Positions 1-47,714 of a stretch of DNA of 64,000 nucleotides are shown piece after piece. The notes under the pieces are model-generated. The model searched no databases. It worked only from the letters and a program-made list of their open reading frames with translations, and was not told where the DNA came from. Position numbers and translations under genes: made by a program. Position 1 is the first letter of the stretch, and the number at the start of each line of letters is the position of its first letter. This stretch comes from Alphaproteobacteria bacterium (GTDB taxonomy: Bacteria > Pseudomonadota > Alphaproteobacteria > DATDPM01), in assembly GCA_041479345.1 (NCBI GenBank), contig JBGOXX010000001.1, positions 1,209-65,208 on the forward strand, read 5' to 3'.

Positions 1-207
1 GATTGCGGTCACCGGATCGCCGGATTGGCGGCTTGCCTCGCCGACGCGAATAAGAGCCGCAACCGATCCGGCCGGAGCGCCCGGGTGATTGGCGACATCC
101 TCCGGAGTGGGCCGGAGCGAGTCGGTAATCGGATCGGTGGCGCAGCCGATGAGCAAGAAAGCGGCCGCGATCAAAGCCAGAAAGGCGAGGCGGTAAGAAC
201 TCAGCAT
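1..207 (-). CDS. putative lipoprotein, N-terminal part only; the gene runs off the left edge of the window
   Basis: Reverse-strand ATG at 207-205 gives MLSSYRLAFLALIAAAFLLIGCATDPITDSLRPTPEDV..., i.e. a signal peptide plus lipobox L-I-G-C. The frame stays open to position 1. It is absent from the ORF track because it has no stop inside the window. Confidence 0.4.
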   Translation of the reverse strand, partial: MLSSYRLAFLALIAAAFLLIGCATDPITDSLRPTPEDVANHPGAPAGSVAALIRVGEASRQSGDPVTAI

Positions 208-320
208 CGTGCGCGCTACTCCGGTTATCTTCCGGTTTAAGCACACCGTTTTAGGGTCGCATGGTTAACCCAAGGTTAAGTGGGACTATGTTCGTAAAAA
301 TGACACAGCATGCGCCCTCA

Positions 321-350
321 ATTCCCGCTCGCGTTATTCCCGCTCGCGTT
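321..350. repeat. perfect tandem duplication of the 15-bp unit attcccgctcgcgtt
   Basis: Read directly: attcccgctcgcgtt at 321-335 and again at 336-350, in the region downstream of the SET-domain gene. Confidence 0.8.
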
Positions 351-412
351 TGGGCGGCGGTGCATTTCGAGCGTCAGAAAGCAGGCGAGAGTCGTGCGCT
401 AATGAATTGCCG

Positions 413-838
413 TCAAAGGACGCATTTCGGCTCTTCGCACCAACACGGAATACCCTGTGGCACGAGATCGGTTTCCCGGTAATCCCACTTCAGTTCCGTG
501 CCTTTCGGGATCATTCGCTTGGCACGAACGACCAAAGTGCGTTCGATATAGCAATTGGGCTCGCAGGAATGATTCATGAAATCGACGCCGCCGATATCGT
601 CGGGGGTAATCGGGGACAGGGCGAAGAACTTCCCGTCCTGGACCGCCAAGTGGATCAACATATGCGGATTTTCGCTGCCGTAGTCGACGGTTCCGTCGGG
701 CTTGATATCGAGGGCCACGGCGCGGCCGTCGAAGATCGCCACCACGGCGTCCTTGGGGATGTCGGTGCGGCTGAACACACCGTGCTCCCCGCCCGGCAGC
801 TTCCGGATTTCCACATAATCGTAATTGGTCCAGCTCAT
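413..838 (-). CDS. SET domain-containing protein (putative protein-lysine N-methyltransferase), 141 aa
   Basis: Contains the SET signatures NHSCEPNC and ELKWDY together with an upstream GxG-type stretch. It is a compact, minimal SET domain. Confidence 0.8.
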   Translation of the reverse strand: MSWTNYDYVEIRKLPGGEHGVFSRTDIPKDAVVAIFDGRAVALDIKPDGTVDYGSENPHMLIHLAVQDGKFFALSPITPDDIGGVDFMNHSCEPNCYIERTLVVRAKRMIPKGTELKWDYRETDLVPQGIPCWCEEPKCVL

Positions 839-1108
839 TGCCTCGTCTCCCGCGGCCGCCAGCGGCTGGCGGCGATGCCCGCGATAATCCGCTGGCCGCC
901 CGTGGCCAGCTGCGCCCAGTTTCCCAATGTCATGGATAAGTCCCGATGGGGACTACAGCAAGGGTCGTCGCCCACAACTTCTTTGTCGAACCGTTTCTTA
1001 GTGAGTTGTTTTCGCCCGAACCGCCATTGGTCAAATCGGCGTCGACCGATTGACCGTCGTTTTCAGTATCGATTAGTTCCAAAATCAGGGCAAGTCCAAG
1101 CTGTCTAA

Positions 1109-1140
1109 CCTTCAACGCGTTTGGCCTTCAACGCGTTTGG
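1109..1140. repeat. perfect tandem duplication of the 16-bp unit ccttcaacgcgtttgg
   Basis: Read directly: copies at 1109-1124 and 1125-1140, in the intergenic region between the SET gene and the PilZ-like ORF. Confidence 0.8.
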
Positions 1141-1219
1141 CTCGACGGCGGAGGCGGTTTATGGTTACAACCGAACGCAACTTGTGGTTATAACCGGACA
1201 CGGGCGCATCGGGGGGAGC

Positions 1220-1549
1220 ATGCTGCGCGGCATATTGGGGAAGCTGTTCCGGCGTTCGGAACGGCGGCGTGGGCAGCGCGAAGAGGTGTCGCTCGGCACC
1301 GTCGAAATCGACGGACGCGGTTTCCGGGTCAGGAATTGGAGCTCAACCGGCTTTCTTGCCTCTCCTTGCGATTGCGGCCGCAAAGAAGGCGACAGCGTCG
1401 ACATCCTGTTCGATGTTCAAGCAGCCGGCCAGACCCTTCGCTTCGCCTGCAAAGCCATCGTGGTCCGAGTTGGAAACGGCGAGCTTGCCGGTGTATTCAC
1501 CATGATGGACCGGGATACCCGCATGGCCGTCGCCAATTATTTCCAATAA
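1220..1549 (+). CDS. candidate PilZ-domain (c-di-GMP binding) protein, about 109 aa
   Basis: ATG at 1220 is preceded by the GGGGGGAG Shine-Dalgarno at 1211-1218. The product MLRGILGKLFRRSERRRGQREEVSLGTVEIDGRGFRVRNWSSTGF... carries RxxxR motifs followed about 18 aa later by N-x-S-x-x-G, which is the PilZ RxxxR...(D/N)xSxxG pattern. It fills an otherwise empty 700-bp gap, but competing antisense ORFs exist. Confidence 0.4.
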   Translation: MLRGILGKLFRRSERRRGQREEVSLGTVEIDGRGFRVRNWSSTGFLASPCDCGRKEGDSVDILFDVQAAGQTLRFACKAIVVRVGNGELAGVFTMMDRDTRMAVANYFQ

Positions 1550-2603: not shown

Positions 2604-4067
2604 ATGCAGTATCCCAAAGGCTTGCCAGGCGAAAGCGAACCCGGCAGAGTGCCGCCTATGTCCGATCAGGCGGCAGCTGGATTCTTCGGCCGAACCCGAA
2701 GCGCCTTCGTCAATACCTGGCGCGACATTTTGGGCGCGGCCAAACACAAGCTTTCGGGCGCCGTCCATCCCGACCTGCCGCCGGACGATCTCGACCGCCT
2801 GCGCCAGCAGATCGAGGAGTGCTTGACCGCCCGCGGCGGCGAGGTTTCGGCACGGGCGCGGGCCGCCGATCTGGGCACCACCTATCTTGGCTTAAACGAT
2901 GCGGGCCGTATCCGTTTTCTCGGGCTTCTGGCCCGCGACTACGGCTTCGACCGGCGGATGGTGGAAACTACCATCGCCAATCTGCACAAAGCACCGGATG
3001 CATCGCGCTATGCCGCCGCCGCCGGCGAATTGCGCCAGGCCTTGGTTCCGCTGCGGCTGAAGTTATTGCGTCAGTTCAGCGCGTTGGGGGAGGGAATTAA
3101 ATTTCTCTCTGATCTTCGTGCGGACGTCATGCGTTACGCCAAATCCGATCCGACCCTGGTTTCCCTGGACGCCGAACTTAGAGACCTTCTGGCCTCCTGG
3201 TTCGATATTGGGTTCCTGGATCTGCGGCGCATCACTTGGGATTCGCCGGCAGCCCTTCTCGAAAAGCTCATCGACTACGAGGCGGTGCATGAGATCCAGT
3301 CTTGGGCGGACCTTAAGAACCGGCTCGATTCGGACCGGCGCTGCTATGCCTTCTTTCATCCCCGGATGCCGAATGAGCCCCTGATCTTTATCGAGGTCGC
3401 TCTGGTTTCCGGAATGGCGGACAATGTCCAGACCTTGCTCGATGAATTGGCGCCTCACCAGGACCCGAAGACCGCCGACAGCGCCATCTTCTATTCGATC
3501 TCGAATGCCCAAAAAGGTCTGGCCGGGGTGAGCTTCGGGGGCTTTCTCATCAAGCGGGTGGTGGACGATCTCGCCCATGATTTTCCAAACCTCAAGATCT
3601 TCGCGACCCTGTCGCCAATCCCAGGCTTCAGAGCTTGGCTTGAAGAGCAAATCGGCGTCGACCGGCCGGTATTGGCGATGCCGGAAGCCCATGACATCGC
3701 TCACGCCCTTGGCACCGAAAACGCGGATACGGCGCTTCTCGACCTGTTATGCCAACCCGGCTGGGCCGAGGATCCGGAAAAAGCGGAGATCATACGGCCG
3801 GTCCTGCTGCGGCTTTGTGCCCGCTATCTCCTGGTCGAGAAAAGGGGAAGCCAGCCGCTCGACCCGGTGGCCCGTTTCCATCTGAGCAATGGCGCGCGGG
3901 TGGAGCGGCTCAACTGGCTGGCCGACAAGTCGCCTAGGGGCCTTCGCCAATCTGCCGGCATCATGGTGAATTACCGGTACAAGCTCGAAGAGATCGAGGC
4001 CAATCATGAGGCTTATACCGGCGAGGGCCGGATCGCCGCGGCACCTGGCGTCCGCGGCCTGCTCTAG
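2604..4067 (+). CDS. malonyl-CoA decarboxylase (MCD family)
   Basis: About 470-487 aa with MCD-family regions (FFHPRMPNEPLIFIEVAL, SFGGFLIKRVV, FATLSPIPGFRAWL). An alternative start lies at 2658 (MSDQAAAGFF). Confidence 0.85.
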   Translation: MQYPKGLPGESEPGRVPPMSDQAAAGFFGRTRSAFVNTWRDILGAAKHKLSGAVHPDLPPDDLDRLRQQIEECLTARGGEVSARARAADLGTTYLGLNDAGRIRFLGLLARDYGFDRRMVETTIANLHKAPDASRYAAAAGELRQALVPLRLKLLRQFSALGEGIKFLSDLRADVMRYAKSDPTLVSLDAELRDLLASWFDIGFLDLRRITWDSPAALLEKLIDYEAVHEIQSWADLKNRLDSDRRCYAFFHPRMPNEPLIFIEVALVSGMADNVQTLLDELAPHQDPKTADSAIFYSISNAQKGLAGVSFGGFLIKRVVDDLAHDFPNLKIFATLSPIPGFRAWLEEQIGVDRPVLAMPEAHDIAHALGTENADTALLDLLCQPGWAEDPEKAEIIRPVLLRLCARYLLVEKRGSQPLDPVARFHLSNGARVERLNWLADKSPRGLRQSAGIMVNYRYKLEEIEANHEAYTGEGRIAAAPGVRGLL

Positions 4068-4100
4068 CCCCTGTCTAGCCGGGGCGCCTAAATCCAAGCC

Positions 4101-4598
4101 TCAAGCCCCGCGGGCTTCGAGCACTTTGTCTTCGGTCCGGATGCGGAACCACAGCACCACCGCGTTGAGGATCGAGAAAACCACCGCGATTTTCCACGCA
4201 CCCAGAATGAGCGGCGCAACCGCAATCTCGGCCACGACCACCACGTAATTGGGATGGCGGATGAATCGGTACGGCCCGCGTTTGACCAAAGGCGCGCCCG
4301 GCAGAGTGACGATTCGTGCACACCAATACCGGCCAAGACTGGCCATCACCCAAATCCGGAAGGCGAGCAGGGCAAGATAAAGGAACAGAAAGCGGAAATG
4401 GATGAAGGCTTCGGCCGGAATCAGAAACGCCATCGCCGCCAGCCAGCCCGCGTGAACGGCAATAATCCACGCATAGACCGGCTCATCGATGACCAGCGCC
4501 CCCTGCGCAACGAGACGCTGGAGATTGCGCCGGGAATAGATCAACTCGGCCAATCGCTGGAGAACGAGAAACCCCACGACGACGATATGCGGATTCAT
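4101..4598 (-). CDS. isoprenylcysteine carboxyl methyltransferase (ICMT/PEMT) family membrane methyltransferase
   Basis: Multi-TM protein with the RHPNY motif and a downstream conserved acidic residue (FIRHPNYVVVVAEIA). Its start codon overlaps the PKS stop by 1 nt at 4598. Confidence 0.8.
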   Translation of the reverse strand: MNPHIVVVGFLVLQRLAELIYSRRNLQRLVAQGALVIDEPVYAWIIAVHAGWLAAMAFLIPAEAFIHFRFLFLYLALLAFRIWVMASLGRYWCARIVTLPGAPLVKRGPYRFIRHPNYVVVVAEIAVAPLILGAWKIAVVFSILNAVVLWFRIRTEDKVLEARGA

Positions 4599-5638
4599 CA
4601 GGCGGTTCCCAAAACCAGGAACCCGGCGGTGAACCCGGGACCGAGCGACGACATCAGCTTTCGACCGCCAAGCGCCGCATCCAGCGTACGCCGCAGGACG
4701 AACATGATGGTTGCCGCCGACATATTTCCGAAGTCGCGCAACACGTCGCGGCCGAGAATCATGCCTCCGGGAGCGAGACCAAAGGCCTCTTCCAAAGCGT
4801 CGATCACCTTGGCGCCGCCGGGATGACAGACGAAATTGGCGATATCGGACAGCGCCAGCTTATGGCCGGACAGAAAGTTCTCCGCGGCAGCCCGCAGATC
4901 CGAACGGACCAAGGCCGGAATATTTCGGGAGAACACGACGCCAAGGCCGTCGTCCTCCACCTCCCAGCCCATGACATCGAGGGAATCGGGCCAGCAATAC
5001 TCGCCCCAGGCGGAAATTTCCGGGCCGTCGCCCTCGCAACTGACAATCGCCGCGGCGGCACCGTCACCAAACAAGGCGGTGGCAATGATGTTGCTTTTCG
5101 ATTGATCGGCGCGCCGGAAGGTGAGGGAACACAATTCGACCACGAGATAGAGAATTTTATGTTGGGGCGCGGCTTTCGCCATTGCCGCCGCCCGGGCCAA
5201 ACCGAGGACGCCGCCGGCGCAGCCGAGGCCAAATACCGGCAACCGCCAGACATCGCGCCGCATTCCCATGCGTTCCATGATCAGGGCATCGAGGCTGGGA
5301 GTCGCAATCCCGGTGGTGGACACGGCGACGATCCCATCGATGTCCTCAACGGCGAGACCGGTTTGGTCCAGGACCTGACGCGCCGCGCGTTCGAGAAGAT
5401 CGACGGCGTTCTCGAGGAAAAGCCGGTTCTTCTCCCCCCAGCCATGGGGCTTCTCGTACCAGTCGAGGGGGACGCAGGAATACCGGCACTCGATGCCGGC
5501 ATTGCCGTATATCCCCATCATGCGCTCGATCTCGCTCGAATTGTGGGCGAAGACCCGTCTGACGCGGGCCATCACGTCGGACTGAGTCATACGATAGCGC
5601 GGGACGACAGTGGTCAGGCCAAGCAAATGGGGGGTCAT
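4598..5638 (-). CDS. type III polyketide synthase (chalcone/stilbene synthase family)
   Basis: The catalytic triad context is present: Cys in FGLGCAGGV, His in FVCHPGGAKV, Asn in FGNMSAATIMF. Length is 346 aa. Confidence 0.9.
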   Translation of the reverse strand: MTPHLLGLTTVVPRYRMTQSDVMARVRRVFAHNSSEIERMMGIYGNAGIECRYSCVPLDWYEKPHGWGEKNRLFLENAVDLLERAARQVLDQTGLAVEDIDGIVAVSTTGIATPSLDALIMERMGMRRDVWRLPVFGLGCAGGVLGLARAAAMAKAAPQHKILYLVVELCSLTFRRADQSKSNIIATALFGDGAAAAIVSCEGDGPEISAWGEYCWPDSLDVMGWEVEDDGLGVVFSRNIPALVRSDLRAAAENFLSGHKLALSDIANFVCHPGGAKVIDALEEAFGLAPGGMILGRDVLRDFGNMSAATIMFVLRRTLDAALGGRKLMSSLGPGFTAGFLVLGTA

Positions 5639-15500: not shown

Positions 15501-16110
15501 CGCCGGGAATCTTTTAGGCGACGAGCAATCGGGACATATCCGGGAAGTCGGCATCGAGCTCTATCAGAGTATGCTGGAACAGGCGGTCGCCGAAGTGCGC
15601 GGCGGCGGGCAAGCGGCGGAGGAATGGACGCCGCAGATTTCGATCAGCATGCCGGTTCTCATTCCGGAAAGCTACGTGGCCGATCTTGGTGTGCGGCTTG
15701 GGCTTTACCGGCGCATCGCCAATCTTCAGGAAGAATCCGAAATCGAGGCCTTTGCCGCCGAAATGATCGACCGCTTCGGGCCACTCCCGGCCGAGGCGGA
15801 AAATCTGTTTAGCGTGGTTGCCCTGAAGCGGCTATGCCGCGACGCCAATGTCGAAAAGATCGAGGCGGGGCCCCGGGGCGCCGTGCTGACCTTCCGCGAC
15901 AATCATTTCGCCAATCCCGCCGGGCTCATCGATTTCATCGCCCGCCACGCCGGGACGGTGAAGCTGCGCCCCGACCACAAACTGGTCGTTCAGCGGACCT
16001 GGGATACCGGAACGGACCGCGCCGCAGGCTTGCGCCAAATCCTCCGCGACATTGCGGCGATTGCCGCGCGGGCCAATTCCGTGGAAAAGAAGGGAGCAAA
16101 AGTCAGTTAG
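12598..16110 (+). CDS. mfd: transcription-repair coupling factor Mfd
   Basis: 1170 aa with GDVGFGKTEVA, DEEQHFGV, a UvrB-homology N-terminus and a TRG motif region. Confidence 0.95.
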   Translation: MENLRKFFETPGRVMIAGAPEGFDAQVVSRLAKKHGAERPRPILHVAEDEARMERMAECLRFYAPGLETLTFPAWDCLPYDRVSPNGEVVARRIETLAKLAGGIGEGEPLVVVTTVSAVLQRAPPRDLFREAIFAAGLGDRLSLDDLAGYLARNGYNRADTVREPGEYALRGGIVDLFPPGSEEPLRLDLFGDAIEAIRSFDPVTQRSDKRLERFSLKPVSEVLLTEESIGRFRSGYRDLFGAARRDDLLYEAVSAGRRYSGMEHWLPLFYERIETLFDYLPDAAVTLDPNAEDAVKARLDTIADYYAARVAPSPSDGEAPYRPLPPDRLYLGEAEWADLVAPRPVGVFSPFAAPEHAAGFVDAGGRPGRDFADVRARPDANVFDALRDLLTAEAKNGRHSIVACYSDGSRERFLGLLRDHGINGATLCASWHQVGHLAKESVALVILPIEHGFAAPDAFVVTEQDILGDRLARPPRRRRHAEAFIAEASNLGEGDFVVHVEHGIGRYEGLETLDVGGAPHDCLKLIYRDGDKLYVPVESIEVLSRYGSEGSAAELDKLGGAGWQARKARVRKRIKDIADQLLRIAAARELHDAPVLTPPEGLYDEFAARFPYAETDDQLTAIADSIADLASGRPMDRLICGDVGFGKTEVALRVAFTAVMSGVQVAVVTPTTLLARQHLITFRRRFEGLPVRIGSLSRLSSATEAASVKQGLANGSVDIVVGTHALLAKDLAFRNLGLLIVDEEQHFGVVQKERLKQLRANIHVLTLTATPIPRTLQMALAGVKEMSLIATPPVDRLAVRTFVLPFDPVVVREAILREHYRGGQTFYVCPRIEDLAGVAERIKKLVPEIRIATAHGKLAARQLETVMSEFYDGKFDLLISTNIIESGLDIPSANTLIVHRADMFGLAQLYQLRGRIGRSKQRAYAYLTLPPGRVLNPTAQRRLEILHALDSLGAGFSLASHDLDIRGAGNLLGDEQSGHIREVGIELYQSMLEQAVAEVRGGGQAAEEWTPQISISMPVLIPESYVADLGVRLGLYRRIANLQEESEIEAFAAEMIDRFGPLPAEAENLFSVVALKRLCRDANVEKIEAGPRGAVLTFRDNHFANPAGLIDFIARHAGTVKLRPDHKLVVQRTWDTGTDRAAGLRQILRDIAAIAARANSVEKKGAKVS

Positions 16111-17519
16111 CGCAAACTGTGCCGGGCGCGTTCGATGAGGCTCGCCGAGGTGTCGCCGGGAACGAAGTCGGCGCAGCCGGCTTGAAGCCAAACGGTGACC
16201 GCATCCTTCCCGCCATTGATGCCGAACTGAGTATTGAGGAGCACGCCGGAAATCCTATGCGCGACAATATCGGCGTCTTCCATTGCGGTTTCGGGAAGAA
16301 CGACGCAAAACTCTTTGTCACCAACCCGCGCCACCATGTCTTCGCTACGGACCAGCACCGAAATCCATTCCGCGACTTGGCGCAGGAGATCGTTAGCGGC
16401 GGCGGCACCGAAATCGCGGGCGACCCAGGCCAGGTTCTGGACCTGGAATGAGACCAAGGACAAATGCTTGCGCCAGGATGTGGACGCGGAAATCAAGCGA
16501 TCGAGATGAGCGAGCAAAAAGTCGCGGCCATAGACGCCGCCGGCCTCATGGATACCGGCCTTGCTCTGAATAGCCGCCAATTGATCGCGGATCGAAAGCC
16601 GCAGCTTTTGACGGTGCACCAGGGATTCGATCGCGGTATGAATTTCGGTTTGATCGAGCGGGCGAAGAATCAAGACGCTGGCGCCGCTCATATAAGGTTC
16701 TTCCACGCTGTCGAAAGCGCCGCGGTCGGCGATCAACAGGGCCGGAAGATTGAAAAGCCGGGTGTTGTTACGAATTTGGCCGCAGAGATAGAGCGCGTCT
16801 TCCGCATTGCCATCGATGACGATGACCAGGGCGTCATAGGATTCGCGATGGAGGAGGGATGCCGCGGCAAAAACATCCGGCGCGGTCACGAGGTCGAAAT
16901 CGCGACCGAGCGCTTTTTTGACATCGTCCAATTCTCGGTTGGCCGCCCCGGTGACGAGGATACGGCTGACTTCACCGGCCCGTGGCGCCGCAATCTTGCC
17001 GTCGATCTTCAAACCGAGAGCGCGGGCGGTGGCAATCCGATGCTCCAATTCCGTCCGCATGATCGCAAGCCGCACCAGCGGCTTGAGACGCAGAAGCAAG
17101 ATCGTCTCGCTGAAGGGTCCGATGACGACGTCATCGACGCCGGCATTCAGGGCCCGCCGCCGAAATGCCGGGGGAGCCAGTTCCGCCACCATGACGACGG
17201 GAATATGGGCGGTCTCGCCGCTCTTGAGGGAATGGGCAAGTTTGACGGCTTTTTCGCCGCCATCGCTGGCATCGATGAGAGCCAGGTCCGGATGTTCGTC
17301 CCGGCCCAGCTTGCGGGCGGTGACCGAGAAATCGCTGGCGGACGTGGCGTAACCCTGGCCGCGCAGCATTTTGGCAAGCTGACGCGCGCGGTTTTGGTCT
17401 TCGCTCAAAATCAAGATACGGGCGAGGCAGGCACCCGCAACCGCGGGCGCATTCGCGACGGTGCTGCGCGATGCTCCTTCACACGGAGTAAGACCGTCCG
17501 ATTTTCCCCAGAGACCCAT
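16107..17519 (-). CDS. PleD/PopA-like response regulator: REC-REC-GGDEF with a degenerate A-site
   Basis: Two receiver domains followed by a GGDEF fold. The active-site motif reads RVGDKEF instead of GG(D/E)EF, while an RxxD I-site (RSED) is kept 5 residues upstream. ATG at 17519. Confidence 0.8.
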   Translation of the reverse strand: MGLWGKSDGLTPCEGASRSTVANAPAVAGACLARILILSEDQNRARQLAKMLRGQGYATSASDFSVTARKLGRDEHPDLALIDASDGGEKAVKLAHSLKSGETAHIPVVMVAELAPPAFRRRALNAGVDDVVIGPFSETILLLRLKPLVRLAIMRTELEHRIATARALGLKIDGKIAAPRAGEVSRILVTGAANRELDDVKKALGRDFDLVTAPDVFAAASLLHRESYDALVIVIDGNAEDALYLCGQIRNNTRLFNLPALLIADRGAFDSVEEPYMSGASVLILRPLDQTEIHTAIESLVHRQKLRLSIRDQLAAIQSKAGIHEAGGVYGRDFLLAHLDRLISASTSWRKHLSLVSFQVQNLAWVARDFGAAAANDLLRQVAEWISVLVRSEDMVARVGDKEFCVVLPETAMEDADIVAHRISGVLLNTQFGINGGKDAVTVWLQAGCADFVPGDTSASLIERARHSLR

Positions 17520-29133: not shown

Positions 29134-30366
29134 ATGATTTCTGCCCGTTCCGTCACACCAGGCTACGCCGAACTTGCCGGCGGGACGCCGCTGAACGACT
29201 GGACGACGCCGGCGGCGGCGCTTGGCCCGCAATCGACCTGCGCGGAAGCTTCCGATGTCTTTTCCGAAAACCCCGAGCTGACGGCGCTCGCCGTTGTCGA
29301 CGGCTCCCGAATCGTCGGCCTCGTGACCCGCAGCGAGCTGTTCGCGGCGCTTTCCGACCGGTTCGCGGTCGCCGCGGCGGCCGACGAGCCGGTCGCAAAA
29401 ATTATGAATCGCCGGCCCCTCGTTATCGAAGCGAGCTGCGATTTTGAAAAACTGATCGACATGGTCGCATCCAAACGCTCCGACGCCTTCGCCGCCGGAT
29501 TTATCGTGACGCAAAACGGCGTCTATCGCGGCATCGGGGTCGTCCGATTGCTGATGGGTGCCGCCGCCGACCGGCTCGCCCAGCGGCATACCGAAATCCA
29601 GCGCGCACAGATGGAAGCCGAGCAGTCGAGCAAGAGCAAGGCGCAATTCCTTGCCGCGGTCAGTCACGAACTGCGCACGCCCTTGAACGCCATCATTGGA
29701 TTTTCGCAGATCATTGCCGAAGGCACTTTCGGTCCGAATGACTTCGAACGCTATCGCGGCTATGCCGCGGATATTCAAAATAGCGGCGAGCATCTGCTGG
29801 AGATCATCAACGACATTCTCGATATCTCCAAAATCGAATCCGGCAAATTGGTCTTGCACGAGGAATTCCTGGACATCGAACCTCTCGTCGACGTCACGCT
29901 GCGCCTGGTGCGCCAACGCGCCTTGGAAAATCAGGTGGCGCTCGCCGTTCAGGTCGGTGGGCCGCCCTTCCGCCTGCGCGGCGACAAGCGGTTGCTTCGC
30001 CAGCTCCTGCTGAACCTTGTCGCCAACGCCGTAAAATTCACGCCCCCCACCGGCAAGGTGACGGTCTCCGCCCATCGAACACCGGATGGCGGTTTGTCCG
30101 TCGTCGTCGAAGATACCGGCATCGGAATCGCCAGCGAAGACATCCCGAAGGCGATGATGCCATTCGGGCAAGTGGATAGCCGGTTGGGACGCAAATACGA
30201 AGGCACCGGGCTCGGCCTTCCGTTGGCCAAGGCAATGGCGGAAGCCCATGGCGGTACGCTCAAATTGGAAAGCCAGCTCGGCGTTGGAACGATGGTGACG
30301 GTGCGGCTGCCCGCCGAACGCTTGATCGAATTGCCGGAAGACGGACTCGGGAGCGAAGCGGTATGA
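29134..30366 (+). CDS. cytoplasmic CBS-domain sensor histidine kinase
   Basis: ATG at 29134 with an AAAGG Shine-Dalgarno; the ORF track starts at TTG 29092. An N-terminal CBS pair precedes the H-box [21 protein letters not shown] and HATPase_c GTGLGLPLAKAMAEAHGG. No TM segment. Confidence 0.85.
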   Translation: MISARSVTPGYAELAGGTPLNDWTTPAAALGPQSTCAEASDVFSENPELTALAVVDGSRIVGLVTRSELFAALSDRFAVAAAADEPVAKIMNRRPLVIEASCDFEKLIDMVASKRSDAFAAGFIVTQNGVYRGIGVVRLLMGAAADRLAQRHTEIQRAQMEAEQSSKSKAQFLAAVSHELRTPLNAIIGFSQIIAEGTFGPNDFERYRGYAADIQNSGEHLLEIINDILDISKIESGKLVLHEEFLDIEPLVDVTLRLVRQRALENQVALAVQVGGPPFRLRGDKRLLRQLLLNLVANAVKFTPPTGKVTVSAHRTPDGGLSVVVEDTGIGIASEDIPKAMMPFGQVDSRLGRKYEGTGLGLPLAKAMAEAHGGTLKLESQLGVGTMVTVRLPAERLIELPEDGLGSEAV

Positions 30367-31724
30367 GCCATCGGCCGATCGCCGCCATTCTGCAAATTGC
30401 GGCAGTCGCCGCGATCACCATCCTCGCAACGGAATCGTCGGTGGGCGCCGAATCGTCGATTCTCGATTACGACAGCGGCGGCCATCTACGGAAATTGCAC
30501 GACGTGGCGCCCGAAACGCCGCGCACATCCGGCCAGACCCAATCCGGACAGACCCAATCCGGACAAGCGTCCGACGCGGCGGCGGCCCCGGAATTCGACC
30601 CCGACACATGGTTCGAGCCGGATCAGGTGCTGATCGCCAATCCCCCGGCAAATTTCGAGGATACGGTCAGGTTCGAAGGCTTCCACGTTCTCCAAAAGGT
30701 GCCGCTCAAAGCCCTGGCGATGGAGGTCTGGCGCGTCCACACCCCCGATAAGATCGGCGTCGGCGATGCGGTTGCCCAGCTGCGGCAGGAATTCCCGGGT
30801 TTACTTGTCGATGCCGATCACCTCTACCGGCAAAGCGCTGGACCGGCCTCTGCGGCGACGGCGAGTCAAGCGCGGGCGATCATCGGCTGGAGCGATCTCG
30901 ATCCCGGCTGCGGCACCGGCATCAAGATCGGCATGGTCGATACGCCGGTTGATGTGACCCATCGCGCCTTGGCCGGTCAGAAAATCGTCTATCGCTCCTT
31001 CATTCTGCCCTCACGCACACCGGCACCGGCCGATCATGGAACCGCCATCGCCGCGATGCTGGTCGGCAAGCCGGGAAATGACGGCTTCGGCGGTCTCTTG
31101 CCGGGGGCGGAGCTGCTGGCCGGGAATATCTTCACCTTCAACGATCAGGGCGCTGAAATGGCCGATGTGGTGGCACTTCTGCGCGCCCTCGACTGGCTGA
31201 CCGCCGAGAAAGTACAGGTCGTGAATCTCAGCATGGCGGGCGCCGACAATCAGCTGATGCACCATGTGGTCGAGCAAGCGGGGGCCCGCGGCATGGTCCT
31301 CGTGGCCGCGGTCGGCAATTGGGGCACGACCGACCGGCCGGCCTATCCGGCGGCCTATGCCCAGGCCATCGGGGTTACCGCCGTCGACGCCAACGACTCT
31401 ATTTATTCCTATGCAAACCGCGGTTCCTATGTCGCCTTTGCCGCACCCGGCGTCCAGATCTGGACCGCGGTGCCGGGGGGCGGCCGGTTCCAAAGCGGAA
31501 CATCGTTCGCGGTGCCTTATTTGACGAGCGTCATTGCGACCGAAATGGCGGCGGGGCGGGCACCTTCGGCCGAACGCATTCGCGACCTCCTGAGTCACGA
31601 AGCGGTCGATCTCGGCCCGCCGGGCAAGGACAATACTTTCGGTTGGGGGCTCATCAGAACGCCGCCTTTGTGCAACCAAGGCGGCGCGCCGCAGAATCCC
31701 GATGCGGCCGATGCCGCTCACTAA
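30363..31724 (+). CDS. secreted S8-family serine peptidase (subtilisin-like)
   Basis: A signal peptide precedes the Asp region GMVDTPVD, His DHGTAIAAML, oxyanion Asn VVNLSMAG and Ser GTSFAVPY. The start overlaps the kinase stop (ATGA, 30363-30366). It contains an SGQTQSGQTQSGQ micro-repeat. Confidence 0.85.
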   Translation: MSHRPIAAILQIAAVAAITILATESSVGAESSILDYDSGGHLRKLHDVAPETPRTSGQTQSGQTQSGQASDAAAAPEFDPDTWFEPDQVLIANPPANFEDTVRFEGFHVLQKVPLKALAMEVWRVHTPDKIGVGDAVAQLRQEFPGLLVDADHLYRQSAGPASAATASQARAIIGWSDLDPGCGTGIKIGMVDTPVDVTHRALAGQKIVYRSFILPSRTPAPADHGTAIAAMLVGKPGNDGFGGLLPGAELLAGNIFTFNDQGAEMADVVALLRALDWLTAEKVQVVNLSMAGADNQLMHHVVEQAGARGMVLVAAVGNWGTTDRPAYPAAYAQAIGVTAVDANDSIYSYANRGSYVAFAAPGVQIWTAVPGGGRFQSGTSFAVPYLTSVIATEMAAGRAPSAERIRDLLSHEAVDLGPPGKDNTFGWGLIRTPPLCNQGGAPQNPDAADAAH

Positions 31725-43031: not shown

Positions 43032-44451
43032 ACCCTTAAGCCGGAGCGAATTGGAAGCGGGCGACGCCGAACTCGCAGCCAGCTTGGTGGCGCGCGGCCG
43101 CGCCGCCATGGCCGAATTCGAAAACGCCGGCCAAGCCGTATTGGATGAAGCGGTCACCGCGCTGGCTTGGTCCCATTACCGGCCGGAAAACGCGCGGGAG
43201 CTCGCCGAAACAGCCGTGCGCGCCACCGGCCTTGGCAATGTTTCCGACAAGATCGAGAAAATCCGGCGCAAGACCTTCGGTACGCTCCGCGATCTCTCGC
43301 GGGTCAAATCGACCGGTGTGATCGAGGAAATTCCCGAACGCGGCCTCGTCAAATTCGCCAAGCCGGTCGGTGTCGTCGCCGCAATTTGCCCCAGCACCAA
43401 TCCGGCCTCGACCGCGGCCAACAAGGCGATGATGGCCATCAAGGGCGGCAATGCGATCGTGCTGGCCCCCTCGCCTCTCGGCTGGACCGCGACCGCCCGC
43501 TCGGCCGAGCTGATGCGCGAGGAATTGGCGAGGACAGGGAAGCCCGCGGATTTGGTTCAGATCTTACCGCAACCGGTCATCAAATCCCGCACCGAGGCGC
43601 TGATGAGCGCCTGCGATCTCGTCGTTGCGACCGGGTCATCGGATAGCGTGCGCCGTGCCTACAAAAGCGGGAAGCCGGCGATTGGCGTCGGCACCGGCAA
43701 TGTTCCGGTCATCATCGATTCCAGCGCCGACCTCAAAGACGCGGCGCGGAAGATCGCCGCCTCGAAAACCTTCGACAATGGGACGTCCTGCGCCGCCGAA
43801 AACGCGGTGATCATTCTGGACGATGTCTACCGGCCAGCCATCGAGGCGCTCGTCGCCGAAGGCGGATATCTCGCCGACGACATCGAAAAGCGTTTGATCG
43901 CGGCAAAGTTCTGGATCAACGGCCACCTCAGCCGCGAACTGATTGCCCGCGATGCGGATGTCTTCGCCCGCGCCTGTAATCTCGGCCCCCAGGCCAGGCA
44001 AGCGCGGTTCTTCATGGTCGAAGAAACCGGTGTCGGTCCCGGATTTCCATTTTCGGGAGAAAAACTATCCCTCGTGCTGGCGGTGTATCGGGCGGAGACT
44101 TTTGACCAGGCCGTTGGGCTTGCCCGCGCCATTCTCGATTTCCAAGGCAAGGGCCACTCCTGCGGTATTCACACCAGGGACATGGCCCATGCTCGCGAGC
44201 TCGCCGCCAAGGCCGAGGCGGTGCGGGTGCTGGTCAATCAGTCCCATGCGTTCGGTGGCGGGGGCGGCTTTGACAACGGGTTGAATTTCACGCTGTCCCA
44301 AGGCTGCGGAACCTGGTCCGGCAACAGCATTTCGGAAAATCTCAACTACCGGCATTTCCTGAACATCACCCATCTCTCCGTGCCGATCCCGGAAGACCGG
44401 CCGGCGGAAAACGATCTGTTCGGCGATTATTGGGAGCGGTTTGGGCGTTAG
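43024..44451 (+). CDS. CoA-acylating aldehyde dehydrogenase (EutE/PduP-like ALDH)
   Basis: Catalytic Cys context TFDNGTSCAAENAVII matches the acylating ALDH (EutE/PduP) class. The start overlaps the preceding dehydrogenase gene by 8 nt. Confidence 0.75.
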   Translation: MSRPLSRSELEAGDAELAASLVARGRAAMAEFENAGQAVLDEAVTALAWSHYRPENARELAETAVRATGLGNVSDKIEKIRRKTFGTLRDLSRVKSTGVIEEIPERGLVKFAKPVGVVAAICPSTNPASTAANKAMMAIKGGNAIVLAPSPLGWTATARSAELMREELARTGKPADLVQILPQPVIKSRTEALMSACDLVVATGSSDSVRRAYKSGKPAIGVGTGNVPVIIDSSADLKDAARKIAASKTFDNGTSCAAENAVIILDDVYRPAIEALVAEGGYLADDIEKRLIAAKFWINGHLSRELIARDADVFARACNLGPQARQARFFMVEETGVGPGFPFSGEKLSLVLAVYRAETFDQAVGLARAILDFQGKGHSCGIHTRDMAHARELAAKAEAVRVLVNQSHAFGGGGGFDNGLNFTLSQGCGTWSGNSISENLNYRHFLNITHLSVPIPEDRPAENDLFGDYWERFGR

Positions 44452-45764
44452 TGTATCCGCTTGTTCTCGAACTTCGCGAGATCGGCGGGGAGAAGACCGA
44501 CGCGGATATGGGCAAATTCTTGATCGTCGCGCCGGCTGAGGACTTGGCCGTGACGATAGAGCCAGGCGATCGCCGCACCGTCCGCGAGATCCACAGCCAA
44601 TTCGACAATATCCCTCGCGCTTTGGACGCGGGCCGCAATCGCCTCCATCAGATGATCAACACCCTCCCCCGTCGCCGCCGAAATAAGAATCTGGTTCGGA
44701 TTGCGCGCCGCCTGATTGGCGAGATGGATGCGCGTGGGCTTGTCCAAAAGATCGATCTTGTTCAACGCCTCGATCATTCCGGCATCGACGGCGGCACTGA
44801 GACCCAGATCGCGCAAGACTTCTTCCACGTCCTGCTTCTGGCTATCGGTATCGGGATGGGCGACGTCGCGGACGTGAACGATGATGTCGGCGGCTAGCAC
44901 TTCTTCGAGGGTCGCGCGGAAGGCGGCGACCAGATCGGTCGGGAGATCGGAGATGAATCCGACGGTGTCGGACAAAATCGCCTTCGGCCCACCCGGCAAT
45001 TTGACCGCCCGCATGGTCGGATCGAGGGTCGCGAACAGGAGATCCTGGGCGAAGACCTTCGATTCCGTCAGCCGGTTGAACAGCGTCGATTTACCGGCGT
45101 TGGTGTAGCCAACAAGCGCCACGATCGGATAAGGCACGCGCTTTCGCGCCTCGCGATGCAGGCCGCGGGTACGCTTGACGTCCTGCAGCTCGCGCTTGAG
45201 CCGGATGATTCGATCGCCGATCTGCCGCCTATCGGATTCGATCTGGGATTCACCGGGTCCGCCCAAGAAACCGAAACCGCCGCGTTGCCGTTCCAAGTGG
45301 GTCCAGGACCGGACCAATCGGCTTTTCTGGTAAGTCAGCGACGCCAGCTCGACCTGCAGCCGGCCTTCGCTGGTTCGCGCCCGGTCGCCGAAGATTTCGA
45401 GAATGAGCCCGGTGCGATCGATGACCTTGCACTTCCAGGCCCGCTCCAGATTGCGCTGCTGAACCGGCGACAGCGTTCCGTCGACGACGGCAACACCGAC
45501 ATCGTTTTCCGCGATGGTGAGGCCGAGCCTGTCCACCGCACCTTTGCCGAGCAGTGTTGCCGGCTTCGGATGGTCGAGGCGCACCGCTTCGGCGTCGATA
45601 ACATTCAGGCGAATAGCGGCGGCAAGGCCCGTCGCTTCGGCGAGCTTGGCCTCGGTGTCGCGCTCGTTGGCGCTGTGGCGCAGCAGCGGGCAGACGACGA
45701 GCGCCCGCCCGGTTGAATTGGCGGCATGGCCGTTTGCGCCGGCGGCGCCGTTCTTAAGCGTCAT
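44448..45764 (-). CDS. hflX: GTPase HflX
   Basis: G1 GYTNAGKST and the HflX N-terminal domain. The probable start ATG at 45764 (MTLKNG...) overlaps the hfq 3' end by 11 nt; the ORF track extends to 45854. Confidence 0.85.
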
Positions 45765-46005: not shown

Positions 46006-46176
46006 GGGATAACCCCCATTATTTTTTATTGTCCCCCCGGTCGCCTGCTGTTTCCCGCTTGTCTATTCGCATCGCGACCGCCCGCTGAGTTGAGCACATT
46101 GCTCCCCAGTTTAATGTCCCAATATAACAGAAAAACGTCGGAATTCTAAGGCGTAAGCGGGCCGGGCTCGGGTGTT

Positions 46177-47699: not shown

Positions 47700-47714
47700 G
47701 AGATTTCCGATTGA

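What the first reader, a model, noticed from the sequence alone, without database searches (positions are those of the whole stretch)
413..838. Minimal bacterial SET-domain protein flanked by two tandem micro-duplications
A 141-aa ORF carries canonical SET signatures (NHSCEPNC, ELKWDY). SET-domain lysine methyltransferases are mainly eukaryotic; bacterial ones are sporadic and sometimes act as host-targeting effectors or nucleoid-protein modifiers. The gene sits between two unrelated perfect tandem duplications, a 15-bp unit at 321-350 and a 16-bp unit at 1109-1140. It is also next to a candidate PilZ ORF, in a region with atypical organisation.
Basis: partly seen in the sequence, partly recalled or inferred. 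Interest (0 to 1): 0.5.

Follow-up and report, generated by a model that had tools for sequence, protein, structure and literature searches.

The report
Native bacterial SET-domain lysine methyltransferase gene
A small gene in an uncultured soil alphaproteobacterium encodes a real, intact SET-domain protein methyltransferase that is an old, strongly conserved resident of this chromosome region, not a foreign insert, and the two short duplications beside it are harmless strain-level copying slips.

Summary
Window 413-838 (-) encodes a 141-aa protein that passes Pfam SET (48.3 bits against a cutoff of 22.4). It folds confidently (pLDDT 93.5) into a SET domain closest to MLL1/SETD2/Set2. Both perfect tandem duplications exist (15 bp x2 at 321-350; 16 bp x2.1 at 1109-1141).

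The gene is not sporadic or atypically organised here. GC3 and codon usage are native. The block PKS-ICMT-MCD-asparaginase II-PilZ-like-SET-TPR/SPOR keeps its order in relatives down to 70% SET identity. SET divergence tracks that of its neighbours, and SET is the most conserved gene of the block (0 nonsynonymous against 18-22 synonymous changes between strains).

The duplications are carried by the window and by two contigs with near-identical flanking DNA. Five other contigs that encode the same or a 96%-identical protein lack them, and those carry different micro-indels in the same spacers.

The most likely function is SAM-dependent lysine methylation of an endogenous, unidentified protein. 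This is a new member of a known, already annotated kind. Interest is low.

The parts
413..838 (-). SET-domain plus post-SET protein gene (141 aa, 15.9 kDa, pI 5.0)
   Evidence: Pfam SET at 48.3 bits against a cutoff of 22.4. PDB sequence hits to Set2, MLL and SETD2 SET domains. AF2 pLDDT 93.5. Foldseek gives probability 1.0 to MLL1, SETD8, SETD2, ASH1L, EHMT1 and vSET. dN/dS is about 0 between strains.
551..574 (-). NHSCEPNC motif (residues 89-96): SAM-binding and pseudoknot motif; C92 is also the first zinc ligand of the post-SET cluster
   Evidence: N89, H90, C92 and N95 are invariant in 49 family members. The motif aligns to NHSCSPNA of Set2 and NHSCEPNC of MLL1.
479..496 (-). ELKWDY motif (residues 115-120) with catalytic Tyr120; Trp118 sits at the Phe/Tyr-switch position
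   Evidence: Y120 is present in 48 of 49 and D119 in 45 of 49 members. Position 118 is W in 15, L in 9, I in 7 and F in 7. The motif aligns to EEITFDY of Set2 and EELTYDY of MLL1.
422..445 (-). post-SET CxCx4C motif (CWCEEPKC, residues 132-139)
   Evidence: C132 is present in 49 of 49, C134 in 48 of 49 and C139 in 48 of 49 members. The motif aligns to CYCEEPNC of Set2 and CNCGAKKC of MLL1.
839..1219 (.). 381-bp divergent intergenic region between SET (-) and the PilZ-like gene (+): SET leader with three hairpins (about 850-960), a GGGAGA ribosome-binding site, and an indel-prone stretch
   Evidence: Alignment of the spacer from ten related contigs (L001-L006, L009-L011) with the window and the L045 sequence. 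No Rfam family matches. No sigma-70 consensus promoter was found.
1109..1141 (.). 16-bp perfect tandem duplication (CCTTCAACGCGTTTGG x2.1), a strain-level polymorphism about 80-110 bp upstream of the PilZ-like start
   Evidence: TRF. Two copies in the window, L001 and L005. One copy or a variant in L002, L003, L004, L006 and L045.
321..350 (.). 15-bp perfect tandem duplication (ATTCCCGCTCGCGTT x2) in the spacer between the SET stop and the next gene, a strain-level polymorphism
   Evidence: TRF. Two copies only in the window, L001 and L005. A single or degenerate copy elsewhere.
1220..1549 (+). 109-aa PilZ-like protein gene, divergently transcribed from SET
   Evidence: Invariant R16-x3-R20 and N39-W-S-x-x-G44 in 7 orthologues. 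Four of the seven orthologues hit PF07238 weakly, best E 6.5e-4; the window copy does not. No PDB sequence hit to PilZ. dN/dS is 0.19-0.36.
264..279 (-). CtrA-box consensus TTAACCTTGGGTTAAC, 57 nt upstream of the next gene; it belongs to that gene's promoter, not to SET
   Evidence: It is the only TTAA-N7-TTAAC match in the window, where 0.03 is expected. It is conserved in relatives.
1..207 (-). 5' end of the downstream lipoprotein gene (signal peptide ending ...LLIGC); the full-length orthologue is a 1022-aa TPR + SPOR protein
   Evidence: Translation. Pfam families of the orthologue in L009.

Best explanation
Window 413-838 (-) encodes a catalytically intact, single-domain SET + post-SET S-adenosylmethionine-dependent protein-lysine N-methyltransferase. 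It is a vertically inherited, chromosomal gene of an uncultured, high-GC, apparently free-living soil and sediment alphaproteobacterial lineage. Shown: family membership, fold, conservation of every catalytic and zinc-binding residue, native composition, fixed position in the clade, and very strong purifying selection. Inferred mechanism: the NHSC and ELKWDY motifs come together in the SET pseudoknot. SAM binds on one face. A substrate lysine enters the channel that the post-SET zinc cluster (C92, C132, C134, C139) closes. Tyr120 helps deprotonate and align the epsilon-amine for methyl transfer. The bulky Trp118 at the Phe/Tyr-switch position probably limits the number of methyl groups added. 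Also inferred: the substrate is an endogenous cytoplasmic protein, not a host histone. The acidic enzyme (pI 5.0) would suit a basic target. The only experimental precedents for endogenous targets of prokaryotic SET enzymes are DNA-compacting proteins (chlamydial Hc1, archaeal MC1-alpha), so a nucleoid- or nucleic-acid-associated protein is the leading guess, but it is unproven. The two tandem duplications are neutral replication-slippage polymorphisms in indel-tolerant spacers and have no demonstrated connection to the gene.
For: Family and fold:
- Pfam SET at 48.3 bits against a cutoff of 22.4.
- phmmer against PDB: Set2 at 6.5e-10 and MLL1 and SETD2 at 1e-6 to 1e-4, with motif-for-motif alignment that includes the post-SET region.
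- AF2 with a 49-sequence alignment: pLDDT 93.5, pTM 0.85.
- Foldseek against PDB: 312 hits at E<=1e-3, and all 50 listed top hits are SET domains.
- Catalytic and zinc residues are invariant or nearly so in 49 homologues of 25-86% identity.

Native and vertically inherited:
- GC3 and codon adaptation lie within or above the window's range.
- The gene lies in a core chromosomal context.
- Gene order is identical in L001-L006, L009-L014, L045, L046 and L048-L050.
- SET / MCD / asparaginase / PilZ-like identities fall together: 98/95/91/84, 96/94/83/81, 84/72/62/65, 79/69/66/65, 72/63/61/42 and 70/59/59/37.

Selection:
- 22 synonymous against 0 nonsynonymous differences (L003) and 18 against 0 (L004).
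- omega is 0.05 for L012 and 0.14-0.15 at dS>1. Neighbouring genes have omega 0.04-0.36.

Duplications are polymorphisms:
- Other strains carry different micro-duplications in the same spacer: CGGTTCGACA x2 in L004 and L006, an extra AAG in L003, and TTTGTCGAA x2 in L045.

Literature:
- SET genes are widespread in free-living bacteria (PMC3980110).
- Endogenous targets are known for cpnSET (Hc1) and Go1-SET (MC1-alpha) (PMC10117894).
Against: - No activity, cofactor-binding or substrate data exist.
- Gene neighbourhood gives no consistent clue to the substrate. Three clades have three different contexts.
- The motif-I 'GxG' is atypical (G17-E-H-G20, and G20 is not invariant).
- Trp at the switch position is unusual among characterised enzymes, so product specificity, and even the preference for lysine, is an extrapolation.
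- Only 64 kb of the genome was seen, so secretion systems or a host-associated lifestyle cannot be excluded.
- Some related MAGs carry the label 'Candidatus Odyssella', an amoeba-symbiont genus, although their 64-68% GC makes that label doubtful.
Confidence: 0.7

Rival explanations
1. The protein is a secreted host-targeting effector (a nucleomodulin like RomA/LegAS4, NUE, BtSET or BaSET) that methylates eukaryotic histones.
For: The closest sequence and structure matches are eukaryotic histone methyltransferases (Set2, SETD2, MLL1). All experimentally characterised bacterial SET proteins listed in PMC10117894 act on host histones. Some MAGs in the sister clade are labelled Candidatus Odyssella, a genus of Holosporales amoeba symbionts.
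Against: - There is no signal peptide, N-terminal extension, ankyrin domain or other accessory domain. The protein is only the 141-aa catalytic core.
- dN/dS is about 0 and SET is the most conserved gene of its block. This is unlike genes engaged in host-pathogen conflict.
- Codon usage is native.
- The window encodes many PAS/GAF histidine kinases, GGDEF, NtrBC/NtrYX, efflux pumps and a type III PKS, which is typical of a free-living bacterium.
- The 'Odyssella' loci have 64-68% GC, which from my own knowledge does not fit AT-rich Holosporales genomes.
- No secretion-system genes lie in the 64 kb.
Confidence: 0.07
2. The gene is a recent horizontal acquisition or mini-cassette, and the two tandem duplications are footprints of its insertion or excision.
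For: Two of the only three perfect tandem duplications with a unit of at least 10 bp in 64 kb lie in the two spacers flanking this gene. Both repeats contain or abut the 9-mer CCAAACGCG in the same orientation, which occurs 6 times in the window where 1.7 are expected. At deep levels the subfamily is patchily distributed across phyla (Alphaproteobacteria, Acidobacteriota, Actinomycetota, Cyanobacteria, Myxococcota, Zetaproteobacteria), so transfers did occur at some time.
Against: - The repeat units are unrelated to each other, and each is a head-to-tail local duplication. They are not a pair of direct repeats that bracket the gene.
- The four contigs L002, L003, L004 and L006, which encode the 100%-identical protein, and L045 (96%) lack the duplications but have the gene at the same place.
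- Synteny and co-divergence hold down to 70% identity.
- Composition is native.
- There is no integrase, transposase or tRNA gene nearby.
Confidence: 0.03
3. SET works as a pair with the divergently transcribed PilZ-like protein. In this reading methylation is controlled by, or targets, a c-di-GMP receptor.
For: The divergent PilZ-like / SET arrangement with a shared 381-bp regulatory region is kept in all 17 loci of the clade that have enough flank. The c-di-GMP-binding motifs of the small protein are invariant. A GGDEF response regulator is encoded at 16107-17519. In distant relatives, SET genes sit next to another cyclic-nucleotide-binding protein, MFS-HEAT-cNMP.
Against: - The whole 8-gene block is conserved, so this adjacency is not specific.
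- The pair is absent from the sister clade (metC-like - hisI - SET) and from the clade at about 40% identity.
- The PilZ-like protein evolves far faster than SET: 37-42% against 70-72% identity, and omega 0.19-0.36 against about 0.
- PilZ membership itself is below Pfam threshold.
Confidence: 0.1
4. The SET fold is retained but the protein does not methylate protein lysines. It might methylate another nucleophile or a small molecule, or act mainly by binding.
For: Trp118 at the switch position and the atypical motif I distinguish it from characterised enzymes. No substrate clue emerges from context. The N-terminal MSWTN motif is conserved and of unknown role.
Against: All residues needed for SAM binding and lysine methyl transfer are conserved under strong selection (N89, H90, Y120 and the zinc-binding Cys4). 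Every biochemically characterised SET-domain enzyme known to me is a protein lysine methyltransferase.
Confidence: 0.08

Closest known systems
Eukaryotic SET2/SETD2 and SET1/MLL catalytic cores (SET + post-SET)
   Same: These are the best sequence matches in the PDB (yeast Set2 at E 6.5e-10; MLL1 and SETD2 at 1e-6 to 1e-4) and the best fold matches. The query shares NHSCxPNC, ELxxDY and the post-SET CxCx4C zinc motif.
   Different: The query has no AWS/pre-SET region, no SET-I insertion of comparable length, and no partner-binding or reader domains. It is 141 aa in total. It has Trp where Set2 has Phe and MLL1 has Tyr at the product-specificity switch. It is bacterial and chromosomal. Identity is only 20-30%.
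vSET of Paramecium bursaria chlorella virus 1 (119 aa, H3K27 methyltransferase; PDB 3kma)
   Same: It is a minimal stand-alone SET domain of similar size, and a structural match (Foldseek rank 31, target-normalised TM 0.66).
   Different: From my knowledge of the protein, vSET lacks the post-SET zinc cluster and works as a dimer on host histone H3. It does not appear among the 60 PDB sequence matches listed.
Prokaryotic SET enzymes with endogenous chromatin-protein substrates: Chlamydia cpnSET (Hc1) and Methanosarcina Go1-SET (MC1-alpha)
   Same: They are small prokaryotic SET proteins shown to methylate the organism's own DNA-compacting proteins (PMC10117894, PMC3980110). This is the functional precedent for the proposed endogenous role.
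   Different: The chlamydial enzyme is also secreted into the host. No Hc1 or MC1 homologue was looked for or seen in the window.
Secreted bacterial SET effectors RomA/LegAS4, NUE, BtSET and BaSET
   Same: The catalytic superfamily is the same (PMC10117894).
   Different: Those are effectors of pathogens, delivered by T3SS or T4SS, often with NLS or ankyrin modules (PMC10653858). The present protein has no such modules, shows housekeeping-like conservation and sits in a free-living-type genome.
Database entries 'SET domain-containing protein [Alphaproteobacteria bacterium]' (for example MFZ0694760.1, MGB8274460.1, MBL8662095.1)
   Same: They belong to the same subfamily or the same 90% cluster and are already annotated as SET-domain proteins in public MAGs.
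   Different: They carry only an automatic domain-level name. No NCBIfam family matches, and I found no functional study of this subfamily.

Membership tests
SET-domain protein lysine methyltransferases (Pfam PF00856) | Score above the curated Pfam gathering threshold | tested here: met
   48.3 bits against 22.4, E 1.5e-12, profile positions 2-104 of 105
SET-domain protein lysine methyltransferases (Pfam PF00856) | NHxCxPN motif (SAM binding, pseudoknot) | tested here: met
   N89-H-S-C-E-P-N95. N89, H90, C92 and N95 are invariant in 49 homologues
SET-domain protein lysine methyltransferases (Pfam PF00856) | ELxF/YDY motif with catalytic tyrosine | tested here: met
   E115-L-K-W-D-Y120. Y120 is present in 48 of 49 members. 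The motif aligns to Set2 and MLL1
SET-domain protein lysine methyltransferases (Pfam PF00856) | N-terminal GxG motif I contacting SAM | tested here: inconclusive
   G17-E-H-G20 aligns to KGYG of Set2 with a one-residue offset. G17 is present in 28 of 49 and G20 in 36 of 49 members
SET-domain protein lysine methyltransferases (Pfam PF00856) | SET beta-fold with knot-like C-terminal threading | tested here: met
   The AF2 model has pLDDT 93.5. Foldseek gives probability 1.00 and query-normalised TM 0.55-0.65 to many solved SET domains. Knot topology itself was not inspected.
SET-domain protein lysine methyltransferases (Pfam PF00856) | post-SET Cys cluster (C of NHSC plus CxCx4C) binding zinc | tested here: met
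   C92, C132, C134 and C139 are conserved in 48-49 of 49 members. Zinc binding itself is not testable here.
SET-domain protein lysine methyltransferases (Pfam PF00856) | SAM-dependent methyl transfer to a protein lysine | not testable with these tools
   Needs biochemistry
Secreted bacterial SET nucleomodulins (RomA/LegAS4, NUE, BtSET, BaSET) | Secretion or translocation signal, NLS or accessory host-targeting domains | tested here: not met
   The protein is the 141-aa catalytic core only. Pfam finds no other domain. The N-terminus MSWTNYDYVEIRKL has no signal-peptide character. T3SS and T4SS signals cannot be scored with these tools.
Secreted bacterial SET nucleomodulins (RomA/LegAS4, NUE, BtSET, BaSET) | Host-associated organism with a dedicated secretion system | tested here: inconclusive
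   No secretion-system genes lie in the 64-kb window, and the gene content is typical of a free-living bacterium. The rest of the genome was not seen.
Genomic island / recent horizontal acquisition | Atypical composition, mobility genes, and variable presence among close relatives | tested here: not met
   GC3 is 0.754 against 0.719 (sd 0.062) and the CAI-like score is 0.80 against 0.715 (sd 0.066). There is no integrase or tRNA gene nearby. The gene is present at the same site in all 17 related loci that have enough flank.
PilZ c-di-GMP-binding domain (PF07238), for the neighbouring ORF 1220-1549 | Pfam gathering threshold | tested here: not met
   The window copy gets no hit. Four of seven orthologues hit weakly, best E 6.5e-4. 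There is no PDB sequence hit.
PilZ c-di-GMP-binding domain (PF07238), for the neighbouring ORF 1220-1549 | RxxxR and (D/N)xSxxG c-di-GMP-binding motifs | tested here: met
   R16-R-G-Q-R20 and N39-W-S-S-T-G44 are invariant in 7 orthologues of 41-90% identity.

The most novel reading that the evidence does not exclude
This could be the catalytic core of an undescribed bacterial lysine-methylation signalling system. It is a housekeeping-grade SET + post-SET enzyme, the most conserved gene of its block. Its distant subfamily members occur as tandem SET1-SET2 gene pairs (and many representative-library hits of 310-400 aa contain two SET-matching stretches) next to a 1030-aa MFS-HEAT-cNMP-binding membrane protein. 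In the window's clade it sits next to a PilZ-like c-di-GMP receptor. If so, cyclic-nucleotide signalling and protein lysine methylation would be coupled in free-living bacteria. The Set2/MLL-like post-SET architecture would then represent a prokaryotic relative, or even a forerunner, of the eukaryotic SET1/SET2 enzymes.
Probability: 0.12. Interest if true: 0.65.

Novelty: new member of a known kind. Interest (0 to 1): 0.22.

Why it matters
Bacterial SET-domain proteins have been studied almost only as effectors that pathogens inject into host cells. What they do in the hundreds of free-living bacteria that carry them is still unknown. This gene is a clean example of the second kind. It has a minimal catalytic core, is vertically inherited, is under stronger constraint than the metabolic genes around it, and is not part of a mobile element. 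That makes it, and its relatives in the tandem-SET / MFS-HEAT-cNMP clusters, a reasonable entry point for finding an endogenous bacterial substrate of SET methylation. Beyond that it is an ordinary, already annotated domain family, and the duplications that drew attention to it have no apparent biological meaning.

Tried and rejected
1. A riboswitch or known RNA in the long SET leader or 3' spacer. Rfam at E<=5 over 1-1700 gave only chance-level hits.
2. Sigma-70 promoters and intrinsic terminators. No promoters were found, and terminator-like sites were at chance level. MFE folds of the 3' spacer with and without the 15-bp duplication showed no terminator created or destroyed.
3. Small upstream ORFs.
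   - ORF 930-1115 (-) is broken by a 10-bp indel in L004 and L006.
   - ORF 835-975 (-) ends in an ATGA overlap with the SET start, but its differences between strains are mostly nonsynonymous and it is not alignable in L009-L011. I rejected both as conserved coding sequences.
4. The first AF2 run on 17 close homologues gave pLDDT 64 and was not usable. I repeated it with 49 sequences.
5. A PDB profile search for the PilZ-like protein gave only chance hits to exonuclease III and Crc.
6. Anti-phage defence. PADLOC gave no hits for SET, the PilZ-like protein or the SET2 partner.
7. NCBIfam has no family for SET.
8. A second SET gene or an MFS-HEAT-cNMP gene in the window. tblastn found none.
9. 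Literature on SET + cNMP/HEAT neighbourhoods, or on this subfamily. Nothing relevant was found. The Aravind 2011 review that discusses prokaryotic SET contexts is not in the library.
10. The shared 9-mer CCAAACGCG as a cassette boundary. I rejected this because relatives without the duplications keep the gene.
Full report
**1. Checking the observation**

It matches Pfam PF00856 (SET) at 48.3 bits against a gathering cutoff of 22.4 (E 1.5e-12), covering almost the whole profile. No NCBIfam family matches.

NHSCEPNC is residues 89-96 and ELKWDY is residues 115-120. Together with Cys92 of NHSC, this motif forms the zinc cluster that closes the lysine channel in SET1, SET2 and SUV39-type enzymes.

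phmmer against all PDB sequences gives yeast Set2 (E 6.5e-10), then MLL1-4, SETD2, ASH1L, NSD and EHMT1. The alignments pair all three motifs residue for residue.

Tandem Repeats Finder confirms both duplications as perfect: 321-350 (15 bp x 2.0) and 1109-1141 (16 bp x 2.1). A regex scan shows only three perfect tandem duplications with a unit of at least 10 bp in the whole 64 kb. The third is an in-frame 15-mer at 30534. So the clustering of two beside one gene is real, although that assessment is post hoc.

**2. Structure and active site**

A first AlphaFold run on 17 close homologues was poor (pLDDT 64). With 49 homologues of 25-86% identity (alignment A2), the model reached pLDDT 93.5 and pTM 0.85.

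Foldseek against the PDB returned 312 hits at E<=1e-3. All 50 listed top hits are SET domains: MLL1, SETD8, SETD2, Set2, ASH1L, EHMT1, NSD2 and the viral vSET. Probability is 1.00 and query-normalised TM is 0.5-0.65.

Conservation across the 49 sequences:
- N89, H90, C92, N95 and C132 are invariant.
- Y120, C134 and C139 are each present in 48 of 49.
- D119 is present in 45 of 49.

Every residue that established SET enzymology requires for SAM binding, lysine deprotonation and zinc binding is therefore present and under selection.

Two features are unusual:
- The position two residues before the catalytic Tyr is the Phe/Tyr switch that sets mono- versus di- or tri-methylation in DIM-5, G9a and MLL1 (my knowledge of the literature). 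Here it is Trp in the window's clade, and W, L, I or F in the wider family.
- The N-terminus MSWT(N/D) is conserved even at 40% identity. Its role is unknown.

The protein is acidic: pI 5.0, with a family median of 5.0.

**3. Is the gene foreign or sporadic here?**

It is not.

*Composition.* GC3 is 0.754 against 0.719 (sd 0.062) for 43 long ORFs of the window. A CAI-like index against the window's own usage is 0.80 against 0.715 (sd 0.066). The GC profile shows nothing unusual apart from AT-richer spacers.

*Chromosomal context.* The window is core alphaproteobacterial chromosome. It carries a MacB-type efflux system, recG, mfd, many PAS/GAF histidine kinases, a GGDEF response regulator, mltB, rlpA, dacC, holB, metG, tatD, mazG, hflX, trkA, ntrX/ntrY/ntrC/ntrB and dusB. 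The single tRNA gene is 26 kb away. There is no integrase or transposase near the gene.

*Presence in relatives.* The exact protein occurs on 13 public contigs, including NCBI MAGs GCA_041500845.1 and GCA_041485765.1. It is already labelled 'SET domain-containing protein' in its 90% cluster.

*Synteny.* The gene order is DUF502 / type III PKS / ICMT-family methyltransferase / malonyl-CoA decarboxylase / asparaginase II / PilZ-like / SET / TPR-SPOR lipoprotein. This order is identical in L001-L006 and L009-L014.

*Independent test.* To avoid circularity I also searched metagenomes starting from the PilZ-like neighbour. Every locus of the clade with enough flank (L045, L046, L048, L049, L050) has SET at the same place.

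*Co-divergence.* SET / MCD / asparaginase / PilZ-like identities to the window decline together:

| Locus | SET | MCD | Asparaginase II | PilZ-like |
|---|---|---|---|---|
| L012 | 98 | 95 | 91 | 84 |
| L045 | 96 | 94 | 83 | 81 |
| L048 | 84 | 72 | 62 | 65 |
| L013 | 79 | 69 | 66 | 65 |
| L009 | 72 | 63 | 61 | 42 |
| L050 | 70 | 59 | 59 | 37 |

This is what vertical co-inheritance predicts. SET is the most conserved gene of the block in every comparison.

*Selection.* By Nei-Gojobori counts, the window against L003 shows 22 synonymous and 0 nonsynonymous differences, and against L004 shows 18 and 0. For L012 omega is 0.05, and at dS>1 it is 0.14-0.15. The neighbouring genes have omega 0.04-0.36.

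Within this clade, it is.

**4. Wider distribution**

A profile search of 1.84 billion cluster representatives finds 2085 proteins at E<=1e-3. Only 92 reach 1e-10 and only 10 reach 1e-30. The top hits are nearly all 133-160 aa. This is therefore a small, distinct subfamily of minimal SET + post-SET proteins.

In species-representative genomes the subfamily is found only in MAGs. That search relied on two peptide patterns, so it is not exhaustive. Three groups emerge:

- **Sister clade (58-65% identity).** It has a different but internally conserved context: metC-like - hisI - SET, with UPF0114 downstream and once a phage integrase. At least one relocation has therefore occurred. Several of these MAGs are labelled 'Candidatus Odyssella', a Holosporales genus. 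The loci have 64-68% GC, so I consider that label doubtful.
- **Group at about 40% identity.** These are Azospirillaceae, Parvibaculum, Rhodospirillales and 'Sulfotelmatobacter' MAGs. They share the MSWT N-terminus and the post-SET motif. The gene is followed directly by a second SET gene of about 120 aa without a post-SET motif (Pfam SET at 59-61 bits). In three loci a 1030-aa MFS-HEAT-cNMP-binding protein follows as well. The same large protein lies next to more distant SETs in three further loci.
- **More distant members.** They occur in Cyanobacteria, Actinomycetota, Myxococcota and Zetaproteobacteria. At deep levels the distribution is patchy.

The window itself has neither a second SET gene nor the MFS-HEAT-cNMP gene.

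**5. The tandem duplications**

I aligned both spacers from the window with those of L001-L006, whose proteins are identical to the window's, and L009-L011. The two-copy state of both repeats occurs only in the window, L001 and L005, whose flanking DNA is essentially identical.

L002, L003, L004 and L006 encode the 100%-identical protein at dS 0.10-0.29, and L045 encodes a 96%-identical one. All five have one copy or a diverged version.

The same upstream spacer carries other micro-duplications in other strains: CGGTTCGACA x2 in L004 and L006, an extra AAG in L003, and TTTGTCGAA x2 in L045.

The two units are unrelated to each other, apart from abutting a common 9-mer, CCAAACGCG. That 9-mer occurs 6 times in the window where 1.7 are expected. 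Neither repeat brackets the gene as a target-site duplication would.

The 16-bp repeat lies 80-110 bp upstream of the conserved start (ATG 1220) of the PilZ-like gene. It creates the spurious 142-aa TTG-1121 extension called in one MAG. A 16-bp insertion is not a multiple of three, so that extension cannot be conserved in single-copy strains.

The 15-bp repeat lies between the SET stop codon and the promoter region of the next gene. MFE folding with and without it shows no terminator gained or lost.

I conclude that both are recent replication-slippage polymorphisms in indel-tolerant spacers.

**6. Surroundings**

*Upstream neighbour.* ORF 1220-1549 (+) encodes 109 aa with invariant RxxxR and NxSxxG motifs. 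It is below Pfam PilZ significance in the window copy and only weakly positive in four of seven orthologues. It has no PDB sequence match to PilZ. It is plausibly a divergent PilZ protein, and it evolves quickly.

*Downstream neighbour.* The gene that starts at 207 (-) encodes a lipoprotein (signal peptide ...LLIGC). Its full-length orthologue has TPR and SPOR domains. Fifty-seven nt upstream of its start lies the only full CtrA-box consensus (TTAA-N7-TTAAC) in the window, where 0.03 is expected. It is conserved in relatives. This fits cell-cycle control of a septal peptidoglycan-binding protein and has no evident link to SET.

*SET leader.* It contains three hairpins (about 850-960). Their between-strain differences fall mainly in the loops or give G-U pairs; the hairpin next to the ribosome-binding site is remodelled in L004 and L006. 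No Rfam family matches.

**7. Mechanism and rivals**

*Best-supported explanation (confidence 0.7).* This is a native, constitutively needed, SAM-dependent protein-lysine methyltransferase that acts on an endogenous substrate. The catalytic part rests on sequence and model evidence. The 'endogenous' part rests on several observations: housekeeping-like constraint, native composition, the absence of any targeting module, and the free-living character of the genome fragment.

*Substrate.* It is unknown. Precedent points to basic DNA-compacting proteins (cpnSET with Hc1, Go1-SET with MC1-alpha; PMC10117894), and the acidic enzyme is compatible with that. This is inference only.

*Rivals.*
- Secreted histone-targeting effector: 0.07.
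- Functional pairing with the PilZ-like neighbour or cyclic-nucleotide signalling: 0.10.
- Non-lysine or non-catalytic role: 0.08.
- Recent horizontal cassette with the duplications as footprints: 0.03, essentially refuted.

**8. Comparison with what is known, and novelty**

Bacterial SET-domain genes have been catalogued since 2007. They were known in more than 500 genomes by 2014, including free-living species and Bradyrhizobium (PMC3980110, PMC10117894). Members of this very cluster are already annotated as SET-domain proteins.

The protein meets all the sequence and fold criteria of the SET family that I could test. The exception is motif I, which is inconclusive. It fails the criteria of the effector subgroup.

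It is therefore a new, uncharacterised member of a known kind. The mildly interesting points are:
- its extreme conservation;
- its Set2/MLL-like post-SET architecture in only 141 residues;
- the Trp at the switch position;
- the family-level association with tandem SET pairs and an MFS-HEAT-cNMP protein.

Interest: 0.22.

Noticed in passing
window 264-279 (-): This is the only full CtrA-box consensus (TTAACCTTGGGTTAAC, that is TTAA-N7-TTAAC) in the 64-kb window, where 0.03 is expected. It lies 57 nt upstream of the TPR/SPOR lipoprotein gene start (207, -) and is conserved in L001-L006 and L045. It suggests cell-cycle (CtrA) control of that putative septal peptidoglycan-binding protein.
   Followed up: partly
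L024 5001-8923; also L022, L025-L029, L041, L043, L044: Distant (about 40% identity) members of the same MSWT / post-SET subfamily are followed directly by a second SET gene of about 120 aa without a post-SET motif. In L024, L026 and L028 a 1030-aa MFS-HEAT-cNMP-binding protein follows as well. The same large protein also lies next to unrelated SET genes in L041, L043 and L044. Many representative-library hits of 310-400 aa contain two SET-matching stretches. This could be a recurrent SET-pair / cyclic-nucleotide module. I found no literature on it.
   Followed up: partly
window about 850-960 (-), the 5' leader of the SET gene: There are three hairpins: AGTCCC-CATC-GGGACT, GCTGGCC-ACGGGC-GGCCAGC and GCCGCCAG-CCG-CTGGCGGC. 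Their between-strain differences fall mainly in loops or give G-U pairs, and the last one is remodelled in L004 and L006. That hairpin abuts the ribosome-binding site. No Rfam family matches.
   Followed up: partly
window 485-487 (-), residue Trp118: Trp occupies the Phe/Tyr-switch position of the ELxF/YDY motif in the window's clade. Across 49 family members the position is W in 15, L in 9, I in 7 and F in 7. This is unusual among characterised SET enzymes and may restrict product methylation state.
   Followed up: partly
window 345-353, 1116-1124, 1132-1140 (-): Both tandem duplications contain or abut the same 9-mer, CCAAACGCG, in the same orientation. It occurs 6 times in the window where 1.7 are expected. 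No function is evident, and it is partly lost in relatives.
   Followed up: partly
window 2604-5638: A type III polyketide synthase (4598-5638, -) overlaps by its stop and start codons with an ICMT-family methyltransferase (4101-4598, -), next to a malonyl-CoA decarboxylase (2604-4067, +). From memory, the PKS-methyltransferase pair resembles phenolic-lipid (alkylresorcinol, Srs-type) clusters.
   Followed up: no
window 30527-30565: A 15-bp tandem repeat (2.6 copies, 95% match) lies in frame inside a Peptidase_S8 (subtilase) gene (30363-31724, +). It is the only other perfect duplication with a unit of at least 10 bp in the window.
   Followed up: no
window 58979-59908 (+): This 309-aa ORF has GC3 0.48 against a window mean of 0.72 and has no Pfam match. 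It is the clearest compositional outlier in the window and could be foreign or not a real gene.
   Followed up: no
L015, L017-L019 (record titles); GC for L015-L021: Four of these loci (L015, L017-L019) come from MAGs titled 'Candidatus Odyssella' (Holosporales, amoeba symbionts). The sister-clade loci L015-L021 have 64-68% GC and carry metC-like, hisI and ABC-transporter genes. The taxonomic label looks unreliable.
   Followed up: partly
L023 5001-5424: In a long-read MAG (1.56-Mb contig) the SET orthologue is split into two frames (residues 1-57 and 59-141). This is either a pseudogene or a homopolymer sequencing error.
   Followed up: no
window 44448-56517: The cluster dusB - ntrB - ntrC - ntrY - ntrX - trkA - (gap) - hflX is a typical alphaproteobacterial core cluster. 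The 322-bp 'non-coding' gap at 45855-46176 upstream of hflX is where hfq would be expected. I did not check it.
   Followed up: no
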